This document shows, in pieces, positions 9,702-60,574 of a stretch of 64,000 nt of DNA. Location: positions 131,802-195,801 of the forward strand of contig JBCNUU010000001.1 of the NCBI GenBank assembly GCA_039630545.1. The letters run 5' to 3'. The DNA is from Endomicrobiia bacterium (GTDB lineage: Bacteria; Elusimicrobiota; Endomicrobiia; DTEH01). Position numbers and translations under genes: made by a program. Position 1 is the stretch's first letter. The number at the start of each line of letters is the position of its first letter. Under the pieces are notes generated by a model. It saw only the letters and a program-made list of their open reading frames with translations. It ran no database searches and was not told where the DNA came from.

Positions 9702-12056
9702 ATGTCAGTAAATATACCTTATCCTCAAGAAAACAAAGAAATAGCAGAAAACACCCTAACTGAAGAGGTTTTAGTTTCTGAGCAAAAGGAGAACATAAAT
9801 GTTATGGGGTATAACACTGGAAAAAAATTTATAAAACCTTCTCTTTCAAGTAACGCCTTAGTCGTTTTAGAGAAAAGATATTTAAGGAAAGATGAAAACG
9901 GGAATATCATTGAGTCTCCTGAAGATATGTTTAAAAGAGTAGCTAAGGCTATTTCTGAAGCGGATATAAACTATGGAGATGATCCTAATGAATCTTATGA
10001 GAGGTTTTATGAAATAATAGCTTCTCTAGAATTTCTTCCTAACTCGCCTACTTTGATGAATGCTGGTACACCATTTCAACAGCTTTCTGCATGTTTTGTT
10101 TTGCCCATAGAAGATTCTATGGAGTCAATTTTTGAAACATTAAAATACGCAGCTTTAATTCATAAAACAGGTGGAGGGACTGGTTTTTCTTTTTCTAACC
10201 TTAGACCATCAAATGATGTTGTAAAAACAACTTCTGGAATTTCTTCAGGTCCTATATCTTTTATGAAAGTATACAATGCTGCTACAGAAGCTATTAAACA
10301 AGGTGGCAGAAGGAGAGGAGCTAATATGGGAATTTTAAGAGTAGACCACCCTGATATTATAAGTTTTATTAAATGTAAAGAAGAAGAGGGAGAGTTAGTT
10401 AATTTTAATATATCTGTTGCCATCACTGATGATTTTATGAAAAAACTCCAGAATGATGAAGAATACGAACTTATAAATCCAAGAACAAAACAAGTAGTAA
10501 AAAGAATAAAAGCAAGAGAAATTTTTGACTTAATTGTGGAGCATGCATGGTTAAATGGAGAGCCGGGAGTAATATTTATAGATACAATTAATAAACATAA
10601 CCCTACACCAGAAGTAGGAGTTATAGAATCCACCAATCCATGTGGAGAACAGCCTCTTTTGCCTTTTGAATCCTGCAATCTGGGATCTATTAATCTTGGA
10701 AAAATGGTGATTCGCAGAGGAGATAGTTGTGAAATAGATTGGCAACGTCTCAGATATGTGACAGAAACAGCAGTTCATTTTTTGGATAATGTAATAGATG
10801 TTAACCAATATCCTGTAGAAAAAATAAAACAGATGACTTTAGCAAATAGGAAAATAGGTTTAGGAGTAATGGGTTGGGCTGATATGTTGTTTCAGCTTAA
10901 AGTTCCTTATGATTCGAAAGAAGCCCTTTCTCTTGCAGAAAAAGTGATGAGCTTTATAAAAAAAGTAGCAGTAGAAACTTCTCAAAAACTTGCTCAAAAA
11001 AGAGGACCTTTTCCTAATTTTGAAAAAAGTATTTTTAAAAACGAAACTCCAAGACGTAACGCTACACTCACCACTATTGCTCCTACAGGTTCAATAGGAA
11101 TAATTGCTAACGCTTCAACAGGTATAGAACCAGTTTTTGCTTTGGCGTTTGTAAGAAAAAATATTTTAGGAGGAGAAGAACTTTTTGAAATAAATCCTTA
11201 TTTTAAACAAACTTTAATTGCTGAAGGTTTATATTCTAAAGAATTAATTCAAGAAGTAATAGAAAAGGGTTCATTGAAAAATATAAAAGGCATACCTGAA
11301 ACTATTAAAAAAATTTTTGTTACAGCATTAGATGTACCGCCAGAGATGCATGTAAGAATGCAGGCAGCTTTTCAAAAATATGTGGATAACGCTGTTTCAA
11401 AAACAATTAATCTGCCTAACTCTGCTACAAAAGAAGATGTAGCGAAGGTTTATATTTTAGCATATAAACTTGGATGTAAAGGAGTTACTGTATATAGAGA
11501 TGGTTCAAGATCAGCTCAGGTATTAAATGTAGGTTCATCCAAAAAGAAATCTCAAAAAGAACAGCTGAAAGAAGAACCAAGAGTAAGACCTAAAGTTGTT
11601 TCTGGTAAAACAGTAAAGATGGTTACAGGATGCGGTAATATGTATGTAACTGTTAACGAAGACGAATTTGGGCCATGTGAACTTTTTACTTCTTTAGGTA
11701 AAAGTGGCGGTTGTACTTCATCTCAATCAGAAGCTATTGGAAGATTGATTTCACTTGCTTTAAGAAGTGGAGTAAACCCCCAAAAAATTATAGAACAACT
11801 TCGTGGAATTCGTTGCCCTTCTCCTGTGATTTTTCAAGGAGAGTCTATTTTATCTTGTGCTGACGCGATATCAAAAGCACTTGAAATCTATATTAAAGAG
11901 AAAGAGTCACCATCCCTTTTTGACAGCGTAAAAACTCACACTTCTTCATATAATAATATGGGCTTAAATCCAGAATGTCCTGAATGCGGGGGAAGATTAG
12001 AGATATTAGAAGGATGTGCGACTTGCCAAAGTTGCGGTTTTTCTAAATGTTTATAA
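9702..12056 (+). CDS. nrdJ: Class II (adenosylcobalamin-dependent) ribonucleoside-diphosphate/triphosphate reductase
   Basis: 784 aa. Class II RNR hallmarks visible: active-site region NPCGEQPL...ESCNLGSINL and a C-terminal Cys cluster (CPECGGRLEILEGCATCQSCG). No adjacent beta subunit, consistent with a monomeric class II enzyme. Confidence 0.85.
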   Translation: MSVNIPYPQENKEIAENTLTEEVLVSEQKENINVMGYNTGKKFIKPSLSSNALVVLEKRYLRKDENGNIIESPEDMFKRVAKAISEADINYGDDPNESYERFYEIIASLEFLPNSPTLMNAGTPFQQLSACFVLPIEDSMESIFETLKYAALIHKTGGGTGFSFSNLRPSNDVVKTTSGISSGPISFMKVYNAATEAIKQGGRRRGANMGILRVDHPDIISFIKCKEEEGELVNFNISVAITDDFMKKLQNDEEYELINPRTKQVVKRIKAREIFDLIVEHAWLNGEPGVIFIDTINKHNPTPEVGVIESTNPCGEQPLLPFESCNLGSINLGKMVIRRGDSCEIDWQRLRYVTETAVHFLDNVIDVNQYPVEKIKQMTLANRKIGLGVMGWADMLFQLKVPYDSKEALSLAEKVMSFIKKVAVETSQKLAQKRGPFPNFEKSIFKNETPRRNATLTTIAPTGSIGIIANASTGIEPVFALAFVRKNILGGEELFEINPYFKQTLIAEGLYSKELIQEVIEKGSLKNIKGIPETIKKIFVTALDVPPEMHVRMQAAFQKYVDNAVSKTINLPNSATKEDVAKVYILAYKLGCKGVTVYRDGSRSAQVLNVGSSKKKSQKEQLKEEPRVRPKVVSGKTVKMVTGCGNMYVTVNEDEFGPCELFTSLGKSGGCTSSQSEAIGRLISLALRSGVNPQKIIEQLRGIRCPSPVIFQGESILSCADAISKALEIYIKEKESPSLFDSVKTHTSSYNNMGLNPECPECGGRLEILEGCATCQSCGFSKCL

Positions 12057-28648: not shown

Positions 28649-30114
28649 ATGAGATTATTATACATTTATCATATCATATATATTTAAAATTCAACAATTA
28701 CAAACTTTTAAGCAAACTATAAAAGAAGATGATTTTTAAAAACACCAAAAAGAAAGGAAATCTAAAAGTATTCCTTGCCAGTCTTTTTTAGAGCAAAAGG
28801 ACTTACCGGTATAATCAACTAAGCAAAAGAAATAGTTGCAGCAATAAAACATAATTATAATAATACTATGTTGCTTTATAGCTGTTATTCTACTGTTGAG
28901 AGTTATGCATATGCCCATAAGTGGAAATTTAGCTAAAAAAATAGTTTTTTTTGACTCTTTTTAAGAGTGATTTTTTTTTAATAATATTAAAATGACAAAA
29001 AAATATATCAAACCTCAAATTACTTCCAGGAAAGTTTTATTTCCAAATGATACATCTGTTGTTTAGTTAAATGAAGTTTACTATAAAAATGTAATCTGAA
29101 AACTTTATCATCTTTTAAGCTGCTCGATCGTTGGATTTTATTTTATTATCATGTCATTATAAGGTTTATTTTTAAAATAGATAGATTTTTAAAACGTTCG
29201 CTGATGAAGTAAATAAAAAACTGATAACTTTCATAAAAATTTTTTTCTTTCGGTTTTATGTTTTAAAATAAATAAACAGGTTGTTTTTAACATTAGTCTT
29301 CATTTTTTAAAAATGTTTAGGTTTTTCTGCAACAAGAATAAAAACGGTAGAGTATACAATTTGGTGTAGGTTTTTCCACAGGTATAATATAAGGAGCAGA
29401 CCATACTGTGTATGTGCTCTATGTACTAAAAGACACTACAACTTCAGCCCTACCTTAACCTAAATTTTTCACAAAAAGATGTGTTAGTTTTTTGAAATGA
29501 AGTTAGTTTTGAGTTGTATGCTTTTTTTGATACACGGAGTTGTGTAAAAAAATAACATGAATTACAAATCTTAACTTCTGTAACATTTAAACATCTTCAT
29601 TATTCAACATCAACAGATGTGATAAACTATACTACCACATTATTATCCTAAAGAAGATACTGCTGGTGTGTAAAAACAAAGAATTATGCAGAAAAGTTTT
29701 CTTTGTAGTTTTCTGCGAGAAAATTCTTGATTGATACGCAACCAGCAATGTTATGTTATTTGTTTGGATTCAGATACAGGTTTATTTAGAATGGTAGTTT
29801 TTCAAGATTTAGACTGAGAACTTACAACCGAGATAAAACTAACAAGTTTGGTTTATAAATTTTTACCTATCAACTTAAGCTTAATAAATCATCGTTAAAA
29901 TTAGATGAAGAAATAAAAAATTTTAAAAATAAGAAAGACTTAGAATGTTTTGGCATTAAAAAACTGCCTCGTTGTGCAGTATTTAGATACCATATTTTCA
30001 CAAAGTAGATATATGTATAAAACTTTTTATTTTTAATTTAAATAATATAAAAAACTTCAATCAAGTTTGTGTTGATTTTTTATTAAATTTATTGTATTTT
30101 TATAAATTCTGCCT

Positions 30115-30188
30115 CGGGGCGTAGCTCAGGTGGCTAGAGCACTCGTTTGGGGTGCGAGAGGTCAGCGGTTCAAGTCCGCTCGCCCCGA
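30115..30188 (+). tRNA. tRNA-Pro (anticodon GGG)
   Basis: Acceptor CGGGGCG/CGCCCCG, D-arm GCTCAGGTGGCTAGAGC, anticodon stem CTCGT/GCGAG with loop TTGGGGT (anticodon GGG, G37), T-arm AGCGGTTCAAGTCCGCT, discriminator A. The tracked ORF start at 30147 overlaps this tRNA and is rejected. Confidence 0.9.
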
Positions 30189-30203
30189 GATTATCTCAAC
30201 AGT

Positions 30204-32271: not shown

Positions 32272-32425
32272 ATTATTTATGATCCATAAATGGGAGATAA
32301 AATCATTTAAAGAAGCTAATAAGGTAGAATATAGAATAAGATTAAAAGCACAGGAAGAAGATTTAGTAGAACTTAAAAATTTTCTTAGAGAAAACAAAAT
32401 ATAAATCTCAAAAGAATTTTCTTCT

Positions 32426-33712
32426 TTGAGCACAGAGTTTAATTATGTGTTATATGTAAGCAAAGTAGCTCAAGAAAAAATAAGTAAATTATCACTATTG
32501 CTTAAAAATCTATGTAATGATGGTAGTTTTATAGATATAGAGGAAGCTTCTGTTAAAGATGATGATGGTTTAAAATATCTCTATGAGATTTTAAGAGGTA
32601 TGTATGAATTGCCGATAGTAGGACAGCAGAAAGAGTTAAAAGAGGAATATTATGATATTCTAAAAGAGGCAAGTAAAATGATTTCTTCGGTTACAGATTT
32701 TAGTCAGCTCATAAAGATACTTTTTAAAATTTCGCATCAATTAAACTATGACAAAACAGTTATACTTCTTAGAGACGAAGATATGTTTAGTTTTGTTGAT
32801 GGATATGGAATAGACAAAAGCATTGCTGGTTTATATAAGTTAGATTTGAGCGTTGGGGAGATGATAAAAGATTTAGGAAGGATTGTCCCCAAAGAAAAAA
32901 TTCCTATAGAGATTTTAAATTCACAAGAATTATTTAAGATATTTCCAGTAGGTATAATAATTTCTTTAGTTTCTGAAAAAGAAACAGAAGGATTTATATT
33001 GTTAAATGAAAAATCTCATATTATGAAAAATTTTAAAACCGATTATGATTTATTAGAAATTATTTCTTCTCAGATTTCTTCAGTTATTAAGAATTTTCGT
33101 CTTTCTAAAGAAGCAATTACTGATCCATTAACTGGTACATATAGGTATAACTATTTTGTAAAAAGATTAAATGAAGAAATTTACAGAAGTATACTATACA
33201 AACATCCTTTAAGTTTATTGATGATAGATGTAGACAATTTTAAAACAATAAATGATACATATGGACACCAAATAGGAAATGTTGTGTTAAGAGAAATAGG
33301 TAAAGTTTTAAAAGAAAATGTTAGAATAAGTGATATAGTGTGTAGATATGGCGGTGATGAATTTGCTATAATTTTTCCAGAAACTAATATAGATGAAGCA
33401 TTGAGATCTGCAAAAATATTAAAAGACCATATAAATAACGTAGTTAAAATTACAAATGAATTAAAGCAAAAAATAGAAAGAATTGGAATAGAAATTATTC
33501 CTAAAATTATTATTTCTGATATTGAACCGAAGGTTACAGCTTCTATGGGTTTAGCTTTTATTACTGGGAAAGAAGAAAGAAAAATTACTTCAGAAGAGTT
33601 TATTAATTATGCTGATAAAGCTTTATATTTATCTAAAATAGAAGGTAAAAATAAAATAACCATATGGAATGAAGAAGAAATTATAAAATTTTTAAATGGA
33701 GAGATCTACTAA
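32426..33712 (+). CDS. Diguanylate cyclase (GAF-like sensor plus GGDEF)
   Basis: DPLTGTYRYNY, RYGGDEF, ADKALYLSKIEGKNK. Confidence 0.85.
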   Translation: MSTEFNYVLYVSKVAQEKISKLSLLLKNLCNDGSFIDIEEASVKDDDGLKYLYEILRGMYELPIVGQQKELKEEYYDILKEASKMISSVTDFSQLIKILFKISHQLNYDKTVILLRDEDMFSFVDGYGIDKSIAGLYKLDLSVGEMIKDLGRIVPKEKIPIEILNSQELFKIFPVGIIISLVSEKETEGFILLNEKSHIMKNFKTDYDLLEIISSQISSVIKNFRLSKEAITDPLTGTYRYNYFVKRLNEEIYRSILYKHPLSLLMIDVDNFKTINDTYGHQIGNVVLREIGKVLKENVRISDIVCRYGGDEFAIIFPETNIDEALRSAKILKDHINNVVKITNELKQKIERIGIEIIPKIIISDIEPKVTASMGLAFITGKEERKITSEEFINYADKALYLSKIEGKNKITIWNEEEIIKFLNGEIY

Positions 33713-33716
33713 AGCT

Positions 33717-34802
33717 ATGAAACCTGCAGATATAGACCAACTGTTACGGTTGATGGTTAAGAAAGGAATTTCTGATATTCATTTTAAAGCGAATTCTTCG
33801 CCACTAATTAGAATAAATGGTAAAATAGTATCTTCCAGATATGAAAAACTTTCTAAAGAAACAATAGAAAATATAGCATATGAACTGATGAATGAAGAAC
33901 AAAGAAAAACTTTTGAAAGAGAATACGAACTGGATTTTGCTTATTCAATAGAAGGATTCGCCAGATTTAGAATAAATGTTTATAAACAAAAAAATACAAT
34001 AGCTTTGACATTAAGAGTTATACCGTTAGAAATCAAGTCATTTAAAGAGTTAAATTTACCAGAAGAAGTGTTAATAAAACTTGCTCACGAACCACGTGGT
34101 TTGATACTTATAGCTGGTATAACAGGGTCTGGTAAGACAACCACTTTAAACTCAATGTTAAATTACATCAATGAAAATTTTGAATATAATATTATCACCA
34201 TAGAAGATCCTATAGAATATTATCACGTAGATAAAAAATCATCCATTTCACAAAGGGAAATAGGTTCCGATACTAAATCATTTAAAAATGCTCTTAAATA
34301 TGTATTAAGACAAGATCCTGATGTTGTAGTAATAGGAGAGATGCGTGATTTTGAAGCAATATCTGCAGGAATAACAGCAGCAGAGACTGGGCATCTTGTA
34401 CTTTCTACAATTCATACTATTGATGCTGTTCAGACAATTGACAGGATAATAGATAGTTATCCTCCTCATCAACAAAAGCAAGCACGTATACAACTTTCAA
34501 ATGTTTTGAAAGGAATTGTAGCACAAAGACTATGTAATTTAAAAGATGGTTCCGGAAGAATTCCAGCTGTTGAGGTGCTTATAGGAACTTCCTTCGTTAA
34601 AAAACTTATTTTAGAAAATAAAACGCAGGAAATATATAAAGCAATGGAAGCAGGAGAGTATTATATGATGAATACTTTTGACCAATCATTACTTAAACTA
34701 TACAACTCAGGTCTTATTACATTTGACGAAGCTCTGGATAAAGCTACAAATCCAGAAGATTTACAGTTAAAACTCCGTGGAATTTCTCAAACAAGAGGTT
34801 GA
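33717..34802 (+). CDS. pilT: Type IV pilus retraction ATPase PilT
   Basis: Walker A GITGSGKTT. Asp box and His box (ITIEDPIEY, GHLVLSTIHT). Strong colinearity with PilT. ATG at 33717 is preferred over 33696, which overlaps the upstream gene. Confidence 0.9.
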   Translation: MKPADIDQLLRLMVKKGISDIHFKANSSPLIRINGKIVSSRYEKLSKETIENIAYELMNEEQRKTFEREYELDFAYSIEGFARFRINVYKQKNTIALTLRVIPLEIKSFKELNLPEEVLIKLAHEPRGLILIAGITGSGKTTTLNSMLNYINENFEYNIITIEDPIEYYHVDKKSSISQREIGSDTKSFKNALKYVLRQDPDVVVIGEMRDFEAISAGITAAETGHLVLSTIHTIDAVQTIDRIIDSYPPHQQKQARIQLSNVLKGIVAQRLCNLKDGSGRIPAVEVLIGTSFVKKLILENKTQEIYKAMEAGEYYMMNTFDQSLLKLYNSGLITFDEALDKATNPEDLQLKLRGISQTRG

Positions 34803-35536
34803 TTATGCTGCAGGATAAAGACAAAAAAGTAGACGAAATACTGGAAGAATTAAAAAATGTATTAGATTCTATTACTAAAAAAACTCAGACGAATACTCAA
34901 CCATTGCAAGAAGACAGTTTCAAAAAGATAGAAGAAATGAAAAATATATTGAAATCTAAAGAAAAAGAAGAAATTAAACTTGAAGAGAAAAAAGAAGCAA
35001 CACCTACCGAGAAGGTAGACAATGTTAATAAATTAAAAACTTCGTTAACTATCTTCTCTGAAACGACTAAAGAAGAGAAAACAGAACAAAAAATATCTTC
35101 CACAGCTCCAGAGAAACCATCTACTGAAGTGATGCCTCCTGAGGAAGCTGATAAAAAAGAGGGTATTGTAATAAAAACTATGGTGCTGGTTCCATTAGCT
35201 TTACAGGATGCCAAAGATGAGTTTTTTAATAATGTTAATTCTACTTTAAAACGGGTAAGTAAAAAGAATATAGAATTTAAAGAAAGTATCTGTGTAAGTT
35301 ATAGTTCTTTAACCAAGGATATTTTTTTACAATATAGTTTAGTAGTTGAAAAAATCAGAAACAATAACATAAATGCCTTAATTTTTATAGTTAATGAAAA
35401 TACCTTAGAAGTAGAAGAGTTTATTAAAAAAATATCATCCTTTGTTATCTTAGCAAAAAGTATAACAATGAAAGAATTAAAAATGAGATCTACATATTTA
35501 GATCTTTCTATAGATTTACTTTTAACTATAAAATAA
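34799..35536 (+). CDS. Hypothetical protein: K/E-rich low-complexity N-terminal half, with a C-terminal ~120-aa domain that appears shared with the next protein
   Basis: ATGA-coupled to pilT and 1 nt from the next gene. C-terminal segment aligns by eye with the C-terminus of the downstream DnaA-like protein (VIxxxxxxP...KxNxxYK...NxNxxIxxV...EEF...KExxxxxxYLxLxxDxxL). Confidence 0.55.
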
Positions 35537-35537
35537 C

Positions 35538-37334
35538 ATGATTTCTACATGGGATTTAAAATTTTTACCAACAGATAAATATCCTAATAGGTATAGATTA
35601 AGGGTTAAGTGTTCTGCAGAAGATTTGGAAGAGTTATGTAATTTTCTTAAAGAAGACCTAAACTTAGACATATCACCTCCTTTTAATGTTTTATCTTCAA
35701 ATTATAATATAGGAATTTTTATATATGAATTACCACTAGAAACTAAAAATAAACTTGTAGATAAACTATTTTCTATTTGTAAAAGTGGTACAGTAGATGA
35801 AGGAATTTCTTCCAAAGAAGAAAATCAAGAAGAGAAATCTTCTAAAAAAGAATCTTTTCCTGACGAACTAAGCAGTGTCCTTGCCGATTTGGTTGAACAA
35901 CTAAGTTCAAAAGCAGTTGAAGAAGATAGCTCATCCAAGCAAAATATCTTCAATGGGATGCCTTTGAATCCTAAATATACTTTTGAAAATTTTGTAGTAG
36001 GTGCAAGCAATAGATTTACTCATGCTGCTGCTTTAGCAGTTGCTGAAAATCCAGGAAAAGCATACAATCCCTTATTTATATATGGTGGTGTTGGTTTAGG
36101 TAAAACACATCTTATGCAGGCAATAGGACATTATATAAAAAAGAAACGTCCATTACTAAAAGTAGTTTATATCCCATCTGATAAGTTCGTTACTCAGGTA
36201 ATAGAAGCTATCCGTTCCGGTAATATTCAAATGTTAAGGGATGCTTATATGAGGGTAGATGTATTATTAGTGGATGATGTTCAGTTTATGGCTAGTTCAG
36301 AATCTACACAAGAAGAGTTTTTTCATATTTTCAACACTTTGCATCAGTATGGAAAACAAATTGTTCTTACAAGTGACAGACCTCCCAAACTTTTATCCAC
36401 ACTTGAGGATAGATTACGTTCTAGGTTTGAATGGGGACTTATTGCAGATATAAAATCACCTTCTTTAGAAACAAGGGTAGCTATTCTTAAAAAGAAAGGA
36501 GAAGAAGAAAAGGTTAATGTTGATGATAATATTCTTTTATATATTGCATCAAAATTGAAATCAAATATAAGAGAACTTGAAGGTTTCTTAAAAAGAATAA
36601 CAGCATATGCTCATTTAAACAATGTGCCTATAAATATGGAGCTGGTTAAACAGTTAATGAGCGAACTTTTACCAGAAGAAGAACTCACAGAAGAAGAAAA
36701 AGCATTATCTGAAACAAGAAAAGAAAAAATAGAAGAAAAATCTAAAGAAGAACCCAAAGTTTCAGTAGCGCAAGAAGCTGCTTCTAAGAATAAACAAAAA
36801 GAACCTCAAACTATTTCTCTTGAAGAAATATACAGTTCAACACAACCTCCACTTCAACCTCAAACTCCACAGGTTTCTTCCGAAACAGTTGCTTCAAGAT
36901 CATCTGCACCAGATGAACAGAAATTGTATCAAGAGTATGAAGCAGAAACAAATGTAATTGAGGCTGCATTTTTCTATCCTGAAGGTAAAACTGAAGAACT
37001 TAATATAGTAAAACAAAAATTTACTGAAGTTATTAAAAAACATAATTTAAAATATAAATTGGCTACAGCTTTTGATAGACCATACATGTTAGAAAATATA
37101 AACTATAGATTATTTATAGAACTATGTAAGACAAACAAAGTAAATATATGTATAGTTATATCACCTCCGCCCAATAGTAATCTCTCTGCAGAAGAATTCT
37201 ATAATAATCTTTTACCATTAGCAGAATCAGAAGGTATTAGATTGGAATACATTAACTGGAAGGAAATAACAAAAGAATACAGATACCTAAATCTCGCCTT
37301 GGATATAGCCCTATCAAAATTTAAGATGTTTTAG
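35538..37334 (+). CDS. DnaA-paralog: canonical DnaA AAA+ domain III flanked by unrelated N- and C-terminal domains, with no DnaA domain IV (DNA-binding HTH)
   Basis: Residues about 140-370 read as DnaA domain III almost motif for motif ([56 protein letters not shown]; [45 protein letters not shown]; [29 protein letters not shown]; [18 protein letters not shown]). No RPRQIAMYL-type domain IV in any frame. No dnaN adjacent. Confidence 0.8.
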
Positions 37335-57361: not shown

Positions 57362-58951
57362 ATGTCTAAGCAATACTTAATTAGTTTTTTTTTGAATTTA
57401 TTGTCAGGTATTCTTTTCTTTTTATCTTTTCCTAAATTTGGTCATGGTATTTTTGCTTGGTTTTGTTTTGTTCCGTCTTTACTTGTACTATTTTATTTAA
57501 AAAATACCCAGGTAAGTTTGAAAAAAATATTTCTTTTAGGTGTAGCATTTGGTATAGCTGGATATTGCGGATTACTTTATTGGATTGTTCCTACCTTTGT
57601 TGTAGCTGGAGAAAATGTTATTTTTGGTGTTATTGCAGTGATTTTGCTTAGCTTATATTGTAGCTTATATTATAGTTTATTTTATATTTTTTCGTTTTAT
57701 GTTCAAAAAATAAATTTATTTTTTTATTCTCTATTGTTATCTTGTTTGTGGATTTTGCTTGAATATTTAAAAAGTTTTCTTTTCAGTGGATTTCCATGGA
57801 TGTTGCTGGGATATTCACAATATGAGAATCTAAAAATGATACAGATTGCAGAATATTTTGGTGTATACGGAGTTAGTTTTATTTTGATATTTTTTAATGT
57901 TTTTTTAACGAGAGCTCTATATGAATTATTTTTGAAAAAGAAGTTTTTAGAATTCATTTTTAGAATATCTTTGTTGTCTTTTTTCATTTTATTAGTCAAT
58001 ATATATGGCCACAATAGAATAAAAACAATCAATGAAAAAATAAAAAAAATTAACAATAAACTTACAGTAGCTATTCTGCAGGGAAACATTGATCAGTATA
58101 AAAAGTGGGACAGACAATATATAGATTATATTATGAATACATATTCGGAACTCGTTTTTTTATCTCATAAAGAAATAGAAGAAAAAAAACATAATTTAGT
58201 ACTTTATATCTGGCCTGAGAGTTCAGCACCAGGATGTGTACTGCAAGAAGATTACTTATATAACTGGATAGTGTCTCTTGTAAAGTTAACAAATACTAAA
58301 AAAATTATTTCATACCATCTAGTTGGAAGTATAAGAAAAGGAAATAAGAAAGATGAGTACTATAACTCAGCCATGTTATTTGAATTTAAAAATTCTAAAG
58401 TAATAGTTAGACAGATATATGATAAAATTCATTTGGTTCCATTTGGAGAATATGTGCCTTTAAGAAGTGTTTTAGGCAAATTTATAAGTACTGTAAATGA
58501 ACTTGGTGAATTTACAGAAGGGAAGAGAAATGTTGTTTTTAGGTTAAATGCTAAAGAAATGAGATTTTCTACTCTTATTTGTTATGAAAGTGTTTTTCCA
58601 GAGTTAACTAAAAAATTTGTTATTAATGGAGCTAAATTTTTAGTTAATATTACTAATGATGCATGGTTTCTTAAAACATCAGCTCCTTATCAACATTTTA
58701 TTTTTAATATATTTAGAGCAATAGAAAATAGGTGCTACTTGATTAGAGCAGCTAACACAGGAATTTCTTCTATAATTTATCCAACTGGTTATGTTTATAA
58801 AAAAACTAATTTATTTGAAACAACAAAAATTGTAGATGTTATTAATATCTACCATGAAGATACTTTTTATACTAAATATGGTGAATATTTGTGGCTAATG
58901 TATTTAGCTGGGTTTTTATTATTAACCATTTTTCTTTATAAAAAAACATGA
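57362..58951 (+). CDS. lnt: Apolipoprotein N-acyltransferase
   Basis: N-terminal polytopic membrane domain followed by a CN-hydrolase domain. Catalytic triad contexts include WPES and LICYESVFPE. Confidence 0.85.
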   Translation: MSKQYLISFFLNLLSGILFFLSFPKFGHGIFAWFCFVPSLLVLFYLKNTQVSLKKIFLLGVAFGIAGYCGLLYWIVPTFVVAGENVIFGVIAVILLSLYCSLYYSLFYIFSFYVQKINLFFYSLLLSCLWILLEYLKSFLFSGFPWMLLGYSQYENLKMIQIAEYFGVYGVSFILIFFNVFLTRALYELFLKKKFLEFIFRISLLSFFILLVNIYGHNRIKTINEKIKKINNKLTVAILQGNIDQYKKWDRQYIDYIMNTYSELVFLSHKEIEEKKHNLVLYIWPESSAPGCVLQEDYLYNWIVSLVKLTNTKKIISYHLVGSIRKGNKKDEYYNSAMLFEFKNSKVIVRQIYDKIHLVPFGEYVPLRSVLGKFISTVNELGEFTEGKRNVVFRLNAKEMRFSTLICYESVFPELTKKFVINGAKFLVNITNDAWFLKTSAPYQHFIFNIFRAIENRCYLIRAANTGISSIIYPTGYVYKKTNLFETTKIVDVINIYHEDTFYTKYGEYLWLMYLAGFLLLTIFLYKKT

Positions 58952-59691
58952 AGGTTCAACTCACATTAATCTCAATATCTGCCCTAGCTTGGATATATTT
59001 CAATAAGATTATTAAATCTGACATGTTTGTTTTTAGATGATGTCCAGTATAAAAAATGGATGGCAAAATAGAAACAAAATAAAATCTTCAAAATAGAAAA
59101 ACTCCTTAATGTATATTTAGGAATTAAAAGGAAAGTAATAAGTTTTCATCTCTTAAAGTAGAAAACTAAAAAAACTTTAAAATTAGTAAATACATGTAAA
59201 AGTCTTTCTTCTTGCATATATATTTCAGTAAGCGCTGTTAAAGGAATGTTTAGTTTTGGATAAATTCAAAAGATACAATATAGATGTATTTTTTCAAAAT
59301 TATACTACTTCAGTATATTCTTAGCTTTATAGAGAGTTTATACCAAATCTTTCTATAATAGAGATGATTTTTAATGTAAGAAAAGAAGAAACTCTTAAAT
59401 ATTATAAGCATATGATACAGCATTTAAAACTTTAAATTGTAGAATGAATTTTTTTCTTTATAAAAGCATAAAATAAATCTTAAAATCAGCTCAACTTTCC
59501 GAAGAAGAATTTGTAAATGGATTTGGGGAACTGTTATGTAAATTTTTTCAAAACAAAATATAGCATATGTGTTTCTTAAGAAAGCGTAGATTTATATTTA
59601 GCACTTTAAAGTTTAAGTATAGGAAAAAGTTGTGATGTGATAATCTCTTCTTATAGTTGCTTTTGGCAGTTATTAATAGTGTTCTTTAAAC

Positions 59692-59910
59692 TAGCGAAAT
59701 CCTATAATTGCTAATTGTGAATATGGACACCTTACTTATTTGGATATCCAACTGAAGATATTAGATTTAGGAATTCCAGTAATAGAAGATACTGCTCAAA
59801 TTAAATTGTCAGTACAAAAATTAATGGAAAGTTTGTAGTTAATTTTGGAGTAATAAATACGATTTTTTTTATGCAACTAAAATGTTTACGACTTTTGGAG
59901 AAGGTGATGC
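59692..59910 (+). pseudogene. Possible decayed fragment of a DegT/DnrJ/EryC1-type PLP aminotransferase gene inside a 1.26-kb ORF-free gap
   Basis: Frame beginning 59701 translates to ...CEYGHLTYLDIQLKILDLGIPVIEDTAQ..., resembling the conserved (L/I)P(V)IEDAAQA region. A second frame (59891 onward) gives TTFGEGDAFLTN, reminiscent of the downstream G-x-GD...FSF segment. Frames are interrupted by stops. Confidence 0.25.
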
Positions 59911-60574
59911 TTTTTTAACCAATTATTAAAAAATATGAATTTATAAAAGACATAAAGAGTTATGACAAAAAATATAGTTTTTTTGTGTACAGGATGATTT
60001 TAAAATATCAAAAATTCAAGCACTTAAGAGATTAATTCAACTTAAAAATATCTATATAATAAAAAAAGAAAAAATTTTTTTAATGCTACAAAAATAGATT
60101 TAAAAATTGTAATAATATAAAAATATTCACTTTGTTGAGTAATATAGAAACAGTATTTTACAGATTTAAATTATAGAAAACAAAAAACATATAAAGTAGT
60201 TGAATATAAAAAGTGACGGAATCAGTGTATCTTCCTTTATATAAATATTATTCAGACAGTATAGAGTTTTCTGGAAACATTCCAAGAAGAAACACCCAAA
60301 TATGCAATACTGCACCTCTTGCATTATTAGTTCAAATATTTACTACTTTAGTAGTAGTATTTTTTGAATTTAAAATCACAACTTTACCTATTGGGTTTTC
60401 TATTGAAAAAAGTTCTGTGGGTTTAATTTTGTTAGTAAGTTTCTGTACAGGTTTTTATTCAATAATTATAAGATACGCCTGTATAAATAATTTTGTTGCT
60501 TCTTTGATACTATTTCAAGTTTTTTTAATTTTTTGTATAATATCACTGATAATGTACGCTGGGAGAGAAAAGAC

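What the first reader, a model, noticed from the sequence alone, without database searches (positions are those of the whole stretch)
34799..37334. DnaA-domain-III paralog lacking the DNA-binding domain, coupled to pilT and to a protein sharing its C-terminal domain
The 598-aa product of 35538-37334 carries an AAA+ module that matches canonical DnaA domain III motif for motif (Walker [11 protein letters not shown]; DDVQF box; sensor regions [14 protein letters not shown] and NIRELEG). This is far closer to DnaA itself than Hda-type paralogs are. Yet it has no DnaA domain I and no domain IV (the RPRQIAMYL / DHTTV HTH is absent in all frames), and no dnaN follows. Its N-terminal ~90 aa and its C-terminal ~130 aa (after a Pro/Gln/Ser-rich linker) are unrelated to DnaA. 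The C-terminal block aligns by eye with the C-terminal ~120 aa of the immediately upstream 245-aa protein (34799-35536), with shared positions VI-P, K-N-x-YK, N-x-N-x-I-x-V, EEF and KE-x6-YL-L-x-D-x-L. The three genes pilT, the 245-aa protein and the DnaA-like protein are translationally coupled, with ATGA and 1-nt spacers. A DnaA ATPase module re-deployed with new partner domains next to a pilus retraction motor is not an arrangement I recognise.
Basis: partly seen in the sequence, partly recalled or inferred. Interest (0 to 1): 0.75.

Follow-up and report, generated by a model that had tools for sequence, protein, structure and literature searches.

The report
DnaA-like ATPase paralogue beside PilT
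This Endomicrobia genome, like much of the phylum Elusimicrobiota, encodes next to the pilus-retraction motor PilT a protein with an almost canonical DnaA ATPase core but no DNA-binding parts, and it shares two previously undescribed end domains with its neighbouring genes.

Summary
ORF 35538-37334 (598 aa) carries a complete DnaA domain III (PF00308, E 3e-71; 60% identical to B. subtilis DnaA domain III). It has no domain I and no domain IV, and proS follows instead of dnaN.

It is not an artefact. More than 120 homologues with the same architecture exist, all in Elusimicrobiota and all annotated "DnaA".

The C-terminal domain (Y) is related to the C-terminus of the upstream 245-aa protein. 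BLASTP misses this, but a profile comparison gives P 4e-4 and none of 200 shuffles reaches the score.

New here:
- The N-terminal ~85 aa (X, SUI1-like fold) is shared with the GGDEF cyclase two genes upstream.
- All ATPase, arginine-finger and filament-interface residues are kept, but the essential ssDNA-binding lysine (Bsu K222) is Ser or Ala in 117 of 117 members.
- pilT lies upstream in 30 of 41 loci, usually with one or two X/Y-domain proteins in between.

Best reading: a non-initiator, ATP-driven assembly switch in a PilT-linked complex, possibly talking to the real DnaA. A canonical dnaA in the same genome was not shown directly. Function is inferred. I rate it a new variant of a known kind.

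The parts
32279..32404 (+). First 41 codons of the X-domain/GGDEF gene, ending at an in-frame TAA (32402-32404)
   Evidence: tblastn of the DnaA-like N-terminus hits this stretch (40% id, E 5e-6); translation. Relatives have GAA here and an uninterrupted 474-481 aa protein. The same TAA is present in two independent assemblies.
32426..33712 (+). Rest of the diguanylate cyclase gene (second half of domain X, middle region, GGDEF domain)
   Evidence: PF00990, E 3.7e-37. GGDEF and an RxxD site are visible in the translation ('RISDIVCRYGGDEF'). Domain X alignment.
33696..34802 (+). pilT (PilT/PilU-family type IV pilus retraction ATPase)
   Evidence: TIGR01420 465 bits against a cut-off of 319; PF00437. 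Found upstream of the DnaA-like gene in 30 of 41 loci.
34799..35536 (+). 245-aa (probably 243-aa, ATG 34805) partner protein: N-terminal helix motif H, Lys/Glu-rich linker, C-terminal domain Y'
   Evidence: No Pfam or NCBIfam hit. Seven sequence homologues; alignment. The H motif is found in the equivalent proteins of other loci.
35159..35533 (+). Domain Y' of the 245-aa protein (residues ~121-245)
   Evidence: hhalign against the Y profile: P 4e-4, 118 colinear columns, 0 of 200 shuffles reach the score. Reciprocal HMM hits.
35538..37334 (+). DnaA-like paralogue, 598 aa: X - linker - DnaA domain III - linker - Y
35538..35792 (+). Domain X (residues 1-85), small alpha/beta domain with a SUI1/eIF1-like fold
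35955..36692 (+). DnaA domain III AAA+ module (residues ~140-385)
   Evidence: PF00308. 60% identity to B. subtilis DnaA, PDB 8btg, E 2e-95. Motif audit.
36948..37331 (+). Domain Y (residues ~471-598), four-stranded Rossmann-like beta-alpha domain

Best explanation
The 598-aa protein belongs to an Elusimicrobiota-specific family of DnaA paralogues. It is not the replication initiator.

Shown:
- It keeps a complete, almost canonical DnaA domain III, with the ATP site, arginine finger and AAA+/AAA+ filament interface intact.
- It lacks the dsDNA-binding domain IV and domain I.
- It has replaced the lysine that DnaA needs to hold single-stranded origin DNA.
- Its ends are two lineage-specific globular domains on disordered linkers: X (SUI1-like) and Y (Rossmann-like, MID-like).
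- The same domains occur in neighbouring gene products. X is on a GGDEF diguanylate cyclase. Y' is on the 245-aa protein and, in other Elusimicrobiota, on one or two X-linker-Y' proteins.
- All of these sit directly downstream of pilT.

Inferred:
- The AAA+ core works as an ATP-dependent self-assembling switch or platform.
- X and Y are docking modules (X with X, Y with Y') that bring the cyclase and the Y' partner, and probably PilT, into one complex. This would link type IV pilus retraction and c-di-GMP signalling to the ATP state of the AAA+ core.
- Because the filament interface has stayed canonical, the protein may also cap or co-assemble with the genuine DnaA and so influence initiation.
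For: Architecture and absence of domains I and IV.

Family-wide conservation: more than 120 homologues; 56 genome loci, all Elusimicrobiota apart from three loosely labelled MAGs.

Residue audit over 117 members:
- Walker A Lys, Walker B DD, sensor I, R281, arginine finger R285 and sensor II R334 are invariant or nearly so.
- Seven of the eight B. subtilis filament-interface residues reported as essential in PMC6669920 are kept in at least 94% of members.
- Bsu K222 / Eco K243 is Ser in 105 and Ala in 12.
- Eco R245 (B-motif, PMC10325909) is Ser in 114 and Ala in 3.

Rate of change: the AAA+ module is 60% identical to Bsu DnaA, more than Bsu-Eco (54%) or Bsu-Tma (51%). It is as conserved as PilT across loci (median 70% against 67%; RpiB 47%).

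Shared domains: X with the GGDEF protein; Y with Y'; X-linker-Y' proteins in other loci.

Operon: 1-2 nt junctions and no terminator-like site between the genes on the + strand.

Synteny: pilT upstream in 30 of 41 loci, and in 25 of 28 where the paralogue carries X.

Not at an origin: no DnaA-box cluster, GC skew rises monotonically across the window, proS lies downstream.
Against: - No experiment exists, and no interaction was predicted or measured. Docking by X and Y is inferred only from their being shared.
- A subfamily (AAA+ ~45% identical, no X) and some other loci lack pilT. PilT therefore cannot be obligatory for the core pair, the Y' protein plus the DnaA-III-Y protein.
- The cluster sits in conserved housekeeping synteny (rpiB-deoC...proS-rimP-nusA). 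Part of the pilT linkage could be inherited gene order.
- In this genome the X-GGDEF gene carries a real nonsense codon, and X-GGDEF is confined to close relatives, so the cyclase is dispensable.
- A canonical dnaA in the same genome was not demonstrated.
Confidence: 0.45

Rival explanations
1. It is a regulator of replication initiation only (an Hda/YabA-like role). It co-assembles with, or caps, the filament of the genuine DnaA, acting together with its H-linker-Y' partner. The position next to pilT is inherited gene order without functional meaning.
For: The filament interface and arginine finger have stayed canonical while the DNA contacts are lost. The AAA+ module has not drifted from DnaA, unlike Hda, DnaC and IstB. 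The pair of Y' protein plus DnaA-III-Y persists in loci without pilT or X.
Against: pilT is immediately upstream in 25 of 28 X-bearing members across deep divergence, with tight junctions. X is shared with a c-di-GMP cyclase. No clamp-binding motif is conserved in the linkers. The Hda model scores below its cut-off.
Confidence: 0.25
2. It is the organism's real, divergent replication initiator. Domain Y replaces domain IV as the DNA-binding domain, and there is no other dnaA.
For: Every source annotates it as DnaA, and it passes the TIGR00362 cut-off (369 bits against 344). The AAA+ module is very strongly conserved. A canonical dnaA in the same genome was not shown here.
Against: The lysine essential for ssDNA binding (Bsu K222, PMC6669920) is Ser or Ala in 117 of 117 members. 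There is no dnaN, no DnaA-box cluster and no skew switch nearby. In E. minutum, DciA is Emin_0004, and the phylum is listed among those where dciA sits in the dnaA-dnaN-recF-gyrB context. A dnaA pseudogene is described in Ca. Endomicrobium trichonymphae. Y has a Rossmann-like fold with no known dsDNA-binding relatives.
Confidence: 0.07
3. It is part of an anti-phage or nucleic-acid-guided defence system. An Argonaute-MID-like domain is fused to an AAA+ ATPase, by analogy with short prokaryotic Argonaute systems.
Against: - Foldseek ranks lumazine synthase first, and identities are only 9-16%, so this is fold-level similarity.
- There is no PIWI domain and no Pfam hit.
- PADLOC gives no meaningful hit.
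- The locus is vertically inherited in housekeeping synteny, with one copy per genome.
- No conserved Tyr or Lys is seen where the MID 5'-phosphate pocket would lie, by inspection of the conservation profile.
Confidence: 0.03
4. It is an assembly or annotation artefact: a frameshifted or truncated dnaA.
For: None beyond the unusual architecture.
Against: An identical protein occurs on independent contigs. More than 120 clusters share the X-III-Y architecture. Both end domains fold with high confidence.
Confidence: 0.01

Closest known systems
Canonical DnaA (TIGR00362; B. subtilis DnaA, PDB 8btg/8bv3)
   Same: Domain III is complete and 60% identical. All ATPase motifs, the arginine finger, the filament-interface residues and the hydrophobic ssDNA H-motif residue are kept.
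   Different: There is no domain I and no domain IV. The ssDNA-binding Lys (K222/K243) and Eco R245 are replaced by Ser or Ala. New X and Y domains are present. The gene is not next to dnaN or an origin.
Hda / HdaA (DnaA-related regulators made of domain III only)
   Same: Both are DnaA-family AAA+ proteins without DNA-binding domain IV, and are therefore plausibly regulators that act through AAA+/AAA+ contacts.
   Different: It is far closer to DnaA than Hda is: the Hda model scores 107 bits, below its 195-bit cut-off, against 369 bits for the DnaA model. It is about 600 aa with two extra globular domains. No conserved clamp-binding motif is seen. It lies in an operon with pilT.
DnaC / IstB helper ATPases
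   Same: They belong to the same AAA+ clade. In both, a DnaA-type module has been re-used with a different N-terminal partner domain.
   Different: The IstB match is only weak (PF01695 E 1e-10 against 3e-71 for Bac_DnaA). There is no helicase-binding N-terminal domain.
Argonaute MID domain; type-II lumazine synthase (structural neighbours of domain Y)
   Different: Identity is 9-16%. There is no PIWI partner. The 5'-phosphate motif is not evident. There is no sequence-level relation. Homology is unproven.
Pilus/c-di-GMP to replication coupling in Caulobacter (surface sensing through pilus retraction; from my own knowledge, not checked in the paper library)
   Same: The same three ingredients occur together: a pilus retraction machine, a diguanylate cyclase and the replication-initiation machinery.
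   Different: In Caulobacter these are separate, unlinked proteins. Here the link is only a reading of gene order and shared domains.

Membership tests
Chromosomal replication initiator DnaA | AAA+ domain III with Walker A/B, sensor I/II and arginine finger | tested here: met
   PF00308 E 3.3e-71. All motifs are invariant in 117 members. 60% identity to Bsu DnaA.
Chromosomal replication initiator DnaA | C-terminal domain IV helix-turn-helix that binds DnaA boxes (PF08299) | tested here: not met
   No PF08299 hit. TIGR00362 aligns only positions 99-363 of 437. tblastn with Eco and Bsu domain IV finds nothing in the window or in 66 related loci.
Chromosomal replication initiator DnaA | N-terminal domain I (KH-like, binds DnaB/DiaA) | tested here: not met
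Chromosomal replication initiator DnaA | Basic ssDNA-binding residues of domain III (Bsu K222 = Eco K243; Eco R245) | tested here: not met
   K243 position: Ser 105, Ala 12. R245 position: Ser 114, Ala 3. Essentiality from PMC6669920 and PMC10325909.
Chromosomal replication initiator DnaA | Location at oriC / the dnaA-dnaN operon | tested here: not met
   proS lies downstream and pilT upstream. There is no DnaA-box cluster. GC skew is monotonic.
Hda / HdaA | Match to the Hda equivalog models above their cut-off | tested here: not met
   TIGR03420 scores 106.7 bits against a cut-off of 194.8. The other Hda models are far below theirs.
Hda / HdaA | N-terminal beta-clamp-binding motif | tested here: inconclusive
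   No conserved short motif is seen in the linker regions of the 99-sequence alignment. No formal motif search was made.
Argonaute MID domain (for domain Y) | Four-stranded Rossmann-like MID fold | tested here: met
Argonaute MID domain (for domain Y) | 5'-phosphate pocket (Y-K-Q-K type) and an adjoining PIWI domain | tested here: not met
   Y is the C-terminal end of the protein and no PIWI is found. The conserved residues of Y (F19, P21, K41, H42, K45, Y56, K119, Y121, Y123, N125, D129) do not reproduce the motif by inspection. No residue-level superposition was available.
PilT/PilU type IVa pilus ATPase (neighbour gene) | Match to TIGR01420 above its cut-off | tested here: met
   465.2 bits against 319.1.
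GGDEF diguanylate cyclase (neighbour gene) | GGDEF domain with an intact active-site motif in an intact gene | tested here: inconclusive
   PF00990 E 3.7e-37, and GGDEF and RxxD are present in the translation. The gene is interrupted by a reproducible TAA at 32402-32404.

The most novel reading that the evidence does not exclude
The paralogue physically joins the genuine DnaA filament through its unchanged AAA+ interface, while its X and Y domains tie it to PilT, a diguanylate cyclase and scaffold proteins. On this reading Elusimicrobiota have a dedicated protein that couples chromosome replication initiation to type IV pilus retraction and c-di-GMP (surface) signalling, a hard-wired version of a link that in other bacteria is indirect.
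Probability: 0.15. Interest if true: 0.85.

Novelty: new variant of a known kind. Interest (0 to 1): 0.6.

Why it matters
- **Annotation.** Databases call this family "chromosomal replication initiator protein DnaA" throughout a phylum. Origin prediction and replication-gene inventories for Elusimicrobiota can therefore be misled. A simple rule separates the paralogue from the initiator: no PF08299, Ser-Glu-Ser in place of Lys-Glu-Arg, and a C-terminal Y domain.
- **Biology.** It is a natural DnaA domain III that keeps ATP binding and filament contacts but has lost both DNA-binding functions. That makes it a ready-made probe of what DnaA oligomerisation can do away from the origin.
- **New domains and context.** It defines two undescribed domains, X and Y. 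The conserved operon with PilT hints at an unexplored connection between pilus dynamics, c-di-GMP and a DnaA-type switch.

Tried and rejected
- **Pairwise BLASTP of the two C-termini.** Not significant; replaced by the profile comparison.
- **PDB sequence-profile searches with X and Y.** Nothing below E 0.1.
- **Pfam on X/Y-only proteins.** No hits. PADLOC gave only generic P-loop noise.
- **Profile search of X against the 5.8-billion-protein set.** Nothing returned, not even known members, so it is uninformative and the search was wasted.
- **afdb50 fold library.** Unavailable.
- **Attempts to show a canonical dnaA in the same genome.**
  - It is not in the window or in any of the 66 fetched loci.
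  - The Hongoh 2008 paper is not held.
  - The supplement of PMC5174739 is not held.
  - Only indirect evidence remains.
- **Literature searches for a described DnaA-like/PilT protein.** Nothing relevant found.
- **Helix motif H in the DnaA-like protein itself.** Not supported (E > 1). It is a feature of the partner proteins only.
- **Domain X as DnaA domain I.** Rejected on fold.
- **Y as related to the ribH product encoded in the same window.** Rejected (HMM E 0.95).
Full report
**What is there**

The window is AT-rich (about 29% GC), has uniformly positive GC skew and is almost entirely coded on the + strand. The gene order around the finding is:
- tRNA-Pro, rpiB, a TPR-like protein, a lipoprotein, deoC
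- a GGDEF gene (32279/32426-33712)
- pilT (33696-34802)
- the 245-aa ORF (34799-35536)
- the 598-aa ORF (35538-37334)
- proS, rimP, nusA, infB

The 100%-identical proteins in public data come from an Endomicrobiia MAG and from Logan assemblies.

**Check of the observation**

*Domain content.*
- The 598-aa protein has PF00308 (DnaA ATPase domain) at residues 143-303, E 3.3e-71. Neither PF08299 nor a domain I model matches.
- It passes TIGR00362 (369 bits against a cut-off of 344), but only over profile positions 99-363 of 437. The Hda model stays well below its cut-off.
- tblastn with E. coli and B. subtilis domain IV finds nothing in any frame of the window.

*Similarity to canonical DnaA.*
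- Against the PDB the best relative is B. subtilis DnaA (8btg, E 2e-95).
- Over domain III the identity is 60%. That exceeds B. subtilis against E. coli (54%) and B. subtilis against T. maritima (51%).

*Gene junctions.*
- There is a 1-nt spacer between the 245-aa gene and the DnaA-like gene.
- The pilT TGA overlaps a TTG, but the better start is the ATG at 34805, behind AAGAGG.
- The GGDEF stop lies 4 nt before, or 17 nt inside, the pilT start.
- No terminator-like site lies on the + strand between these genes.

**The C-terminal similarity**

BLASTP between the two proteins is not significant (E 2.5). The last ~130 residues of the DnaA-like protein (domain Y) are conserved in 119 of 120 homologues. 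I compared a profile of those with a profile of the C-termini of the 245-aa family.
- hhalign gives score 28.4 and P 4e-4, colinear over 118 columns when relaxed.
- None of 200 column-shuffled controls reaches that score (mean 12.5, sd 2.5).
- Within the six-frame translation of the whole window, each ORF is the other profile's best non-self hit (E 0.012 and 0.036).

I accept the homology at moderate confidence and call the neighbour's domain Y'.

**A second shared domain**

tblastn of the DnaA-like protein against its own window also hit 32279-32458 (40% identity, E 5e-6). This lies just upstream of, and in frame with, the GGDEF ORF.
- In relatives the GGDEF protein is an uninterrupted 474-481 aa. 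Its first ~85 residues align with the first ~85 residues of the DnaA-like protein at 35-42% identity, E 1e-8 to 5e-10. I call this domain X.
- In the window the GGDEF gene has a TAA where relatives have GAA. The same TAA is present in two independent assemblies, so it is a real nonsense mutation.

**Distribution**

- The homologue search returned thousands of DnaA-family hits. The top 120 share the X / domain III / Y layout, never have PF08299, and where named are Elusimicrobia or Endomicrobia 'DnaA'.
- Scanning one genome per species with the Y profile gave 56 loci. All are Elusimicrobiota MAGs or SAGs, apart from three loosely labelled bins. None is from a named cultured species.
- An exhaustive HMMER scan of 1.84 billion representative proteins with the Y profile found only 92 proteins.
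  - Y is always at the C-terminus.
  - It occurs either behind PF00308 or in small proteins with no Pfam domain.
  - One eukaryotic hit is spurious.

**Neighbourhood survey**

I built local HMMs for X, Y, Y' and the neighbouring genes and annotated all loci. Forty-one non-redundant loci have at least 3.5 kb of upstream sequence.
- pilT lies upstream on the same strand in 30 of them. That is 25 of 28 where the paralogue carries X and 5 of 13 where it does not.
- In 24 of the 30, one or two extra proteins lie between pilT and the paralogue and carry X and/or Y'.
  - They have the layout X / long low-complexity linker / Y', are 200-740 aa long, and have no Pfam hit.
  - The 245-aa protein of the window is the X-less version of these.
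- Its conserved N-terminal helix motif ('[14 protein letters not shown]') recurs in them.
- X-GGDEF occurs only in the closest relatives.
- A second, divergent subfamily keeps Y and the upstream Y' partner but has neither X nor pilT. Its AAA+ module is ~45% identical and carries 'DDVQYMTESKISQEEL'.

The conserved core is therefore the pair [H-linker-Y'] plus [DnaA-III-linker-Y]. X and PilT are added in the larger subfamily.

**Residue audit of the AAA+ module**

I anchored the numbering on an E. coli DnaA sequence recalled from memory. It reproduced the known positions K178, V211, D235, R245, R285, R334 and T435. I also used the B. subtilis fragment aligned. The 117 family members show the following.
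- Walker A Lys, Walker B Asp-Asp, sensor I, R281, arginine finger R285 and sensor II R334 are invariant or nearly so.
- The hydrophobic ssDNA H-motif residue is Ile in 117 of 117.
- Of the eight filament-interface residues found essential in B. subtilis (PMC6669920), R202, F218, H231, R264, L269, G317 and R321 are kept in at least 94%. R206 is kept in 56%.
- The essential ssDNA-binding Lys (Bsu K222 = Eco K243) is Ser in 105 and Ala in 12.
- Eco R245 (B-motif; PMC10325909) is Ser in 114 and Ala in 3.

Across loci the module is as conserved as PilT (median identity to the window 70% against 67%) and far more than RpiB (47%). Most positions are at least 90% identical within the family.

**The new domains**

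*Domain X.*
- AF2 pLDDT is 95.6. It is a small beta-beta-alpha-beta-alpha-beta domain.

*Domain Y.*
- AF2 pLDDT is 89.9. It is a (beta-alpha)x4 Rossmann-like domain.
- Foldseek instead ranks Brucella lumazine synthase first (E 2e-5, TM 0.60) and MID second (E 5e-4, TM 0.63).
- Identities are 9-16%, there is no PIWI domain, and the conserved residues of Y do not visibly reproduce the MID 5'-phosphate motif.

I therefore describe Y as MID-like in fold only. Neither domain matches Pfam, NCBIfam, PADLOC or PDB sequences.

**Interpretation**

*Shown.* This is a lineage-specific DnaA paralogue family with a canonical ATPase and oligomerisation core. The dsDNA domain and the ssDNA lysine are lost. 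It has two new terminal domains that are shared with adjacent gene products, in an operon that usually starts with pilT.

*Inferred.*
- The core is an ATP-driven assembly switch.
- X and Y are docking modules. Dimerising N-terminal domains are the usual way GGDEF cyclases are switched on (my own knowledge).
- The complex acts with PilT.
- Hda, DnaC and IstB have drifted far from DnaA, whereas this module has not. That suggests it must stay compatible with a constrained partner. The genuine DnaA is the obvious candidate, but this is a hypothesis.

**Is there another dnaA?**

I could not test this directly. No canonical dnaA lies in the window or in any fetched locus, and the capped searches could not be aimed at it. 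The indirect evidence is:
- The DciA study lists Elusimicrobia among phyla where dciA sits in the dnaA-dnaN-recF-gyrB context, and gives Emin_0004 as the E. minutum DciA.
- Ca. Endomicrobium trichonymphae is reported to carry a dnaA pseudogene.
- The window shows no origin features.

Together with the lost lysine, this makes 'sole initiator' unlikely. I put it at about 7%.

**Verdict**

- It is a new variant of a known kind: the DnaA-family AAA+ paralogues, of which Hda is the known example. It is currently mis-annotated as DnaA.
- I found no paper in the searchable library that describes it.
- Function remains inferred.
- Interest 0.6.

Noticed in passing
window 32402-32404: An in-frame TAA splits the X-GGDEF diguanylate cyclase gene into a 41-codon ORF and a 421/428-aa remainder. 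Relatives have GAA at this position. The same TAA is present in two independent Logan assemblies, so this is a genuine nonsense mutation (a recent pseudogene or a split gene).
   Followed up: yes
window 28650-30110: A 1.4-kb AT-rich stretch between dapA and tRNA-Pro/rpiB has no ORF of 60 aa or more on the + strand. There is no Rfam match at E <= 0.1 and no notable repeats. In a relative (L008) the dapA-rpiB gap is only ~220 nt.
   Followed up: partly
window 58950-60210: A second ORF-free AT-rich stretch of ~1.25 kb lies after the lnt-like gene. There is no Rfam match and only short chance-like repeats.
   Followed up: partly
window 30114-30189: tRNA-Pro(GGG) overlaps the mechanically listed TTG start of rpiB (30147). 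The real rpiB start must be further downstream (around 'MIIAIASDH').
   Followed up: no
L023, L029, L033, L035-L037, L039, L041, L048 (DnaA-like genes ending near locus position 10400): A second, divergent subfamily of DnaA-III-Y proteins. The AAA+ module is ~45% identical and reads 'GPPGVGKTH' and 'DDVQYMTESKISQEEL'. R281 is lost and the arginine finger is kept. They have no X domain and no pilT upstream, but still have an upstream H-linker-Y' partner.
   Followed up: partly
L027 7631-10399 (P0091, 922 aa); L057 8035-10399; L028 4956-6697: Architectural variants. L027 has two tandem X domains before the AAA+ module. In L057, X sits on a separate upstream ORF that overlaps an AAA+-Y ORF. In L028 the gene is split, apparently by a frameshift.
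   Followed up: no
L022 7402-8477; L004 5245-5622: In L022, pilT is broken into three ORFs (a probable pseudogene or assembly frameshifts). In L004, a PilZ-domain (c-di-GMP receptor) gene sits in the same tpiA-rpiB-deoC-pilT-DnaA-like cluster.
   Followed up: no
window, whole: TTATCCACA-like 9-mers (up to 1 mismatch) are somewhat over-represented: 33 observed against 21 +/- 4 expected. They are scattered with no cluster. One perfect copy lies inside the DnaA-like gene (36393-36401).
   Followed up: no
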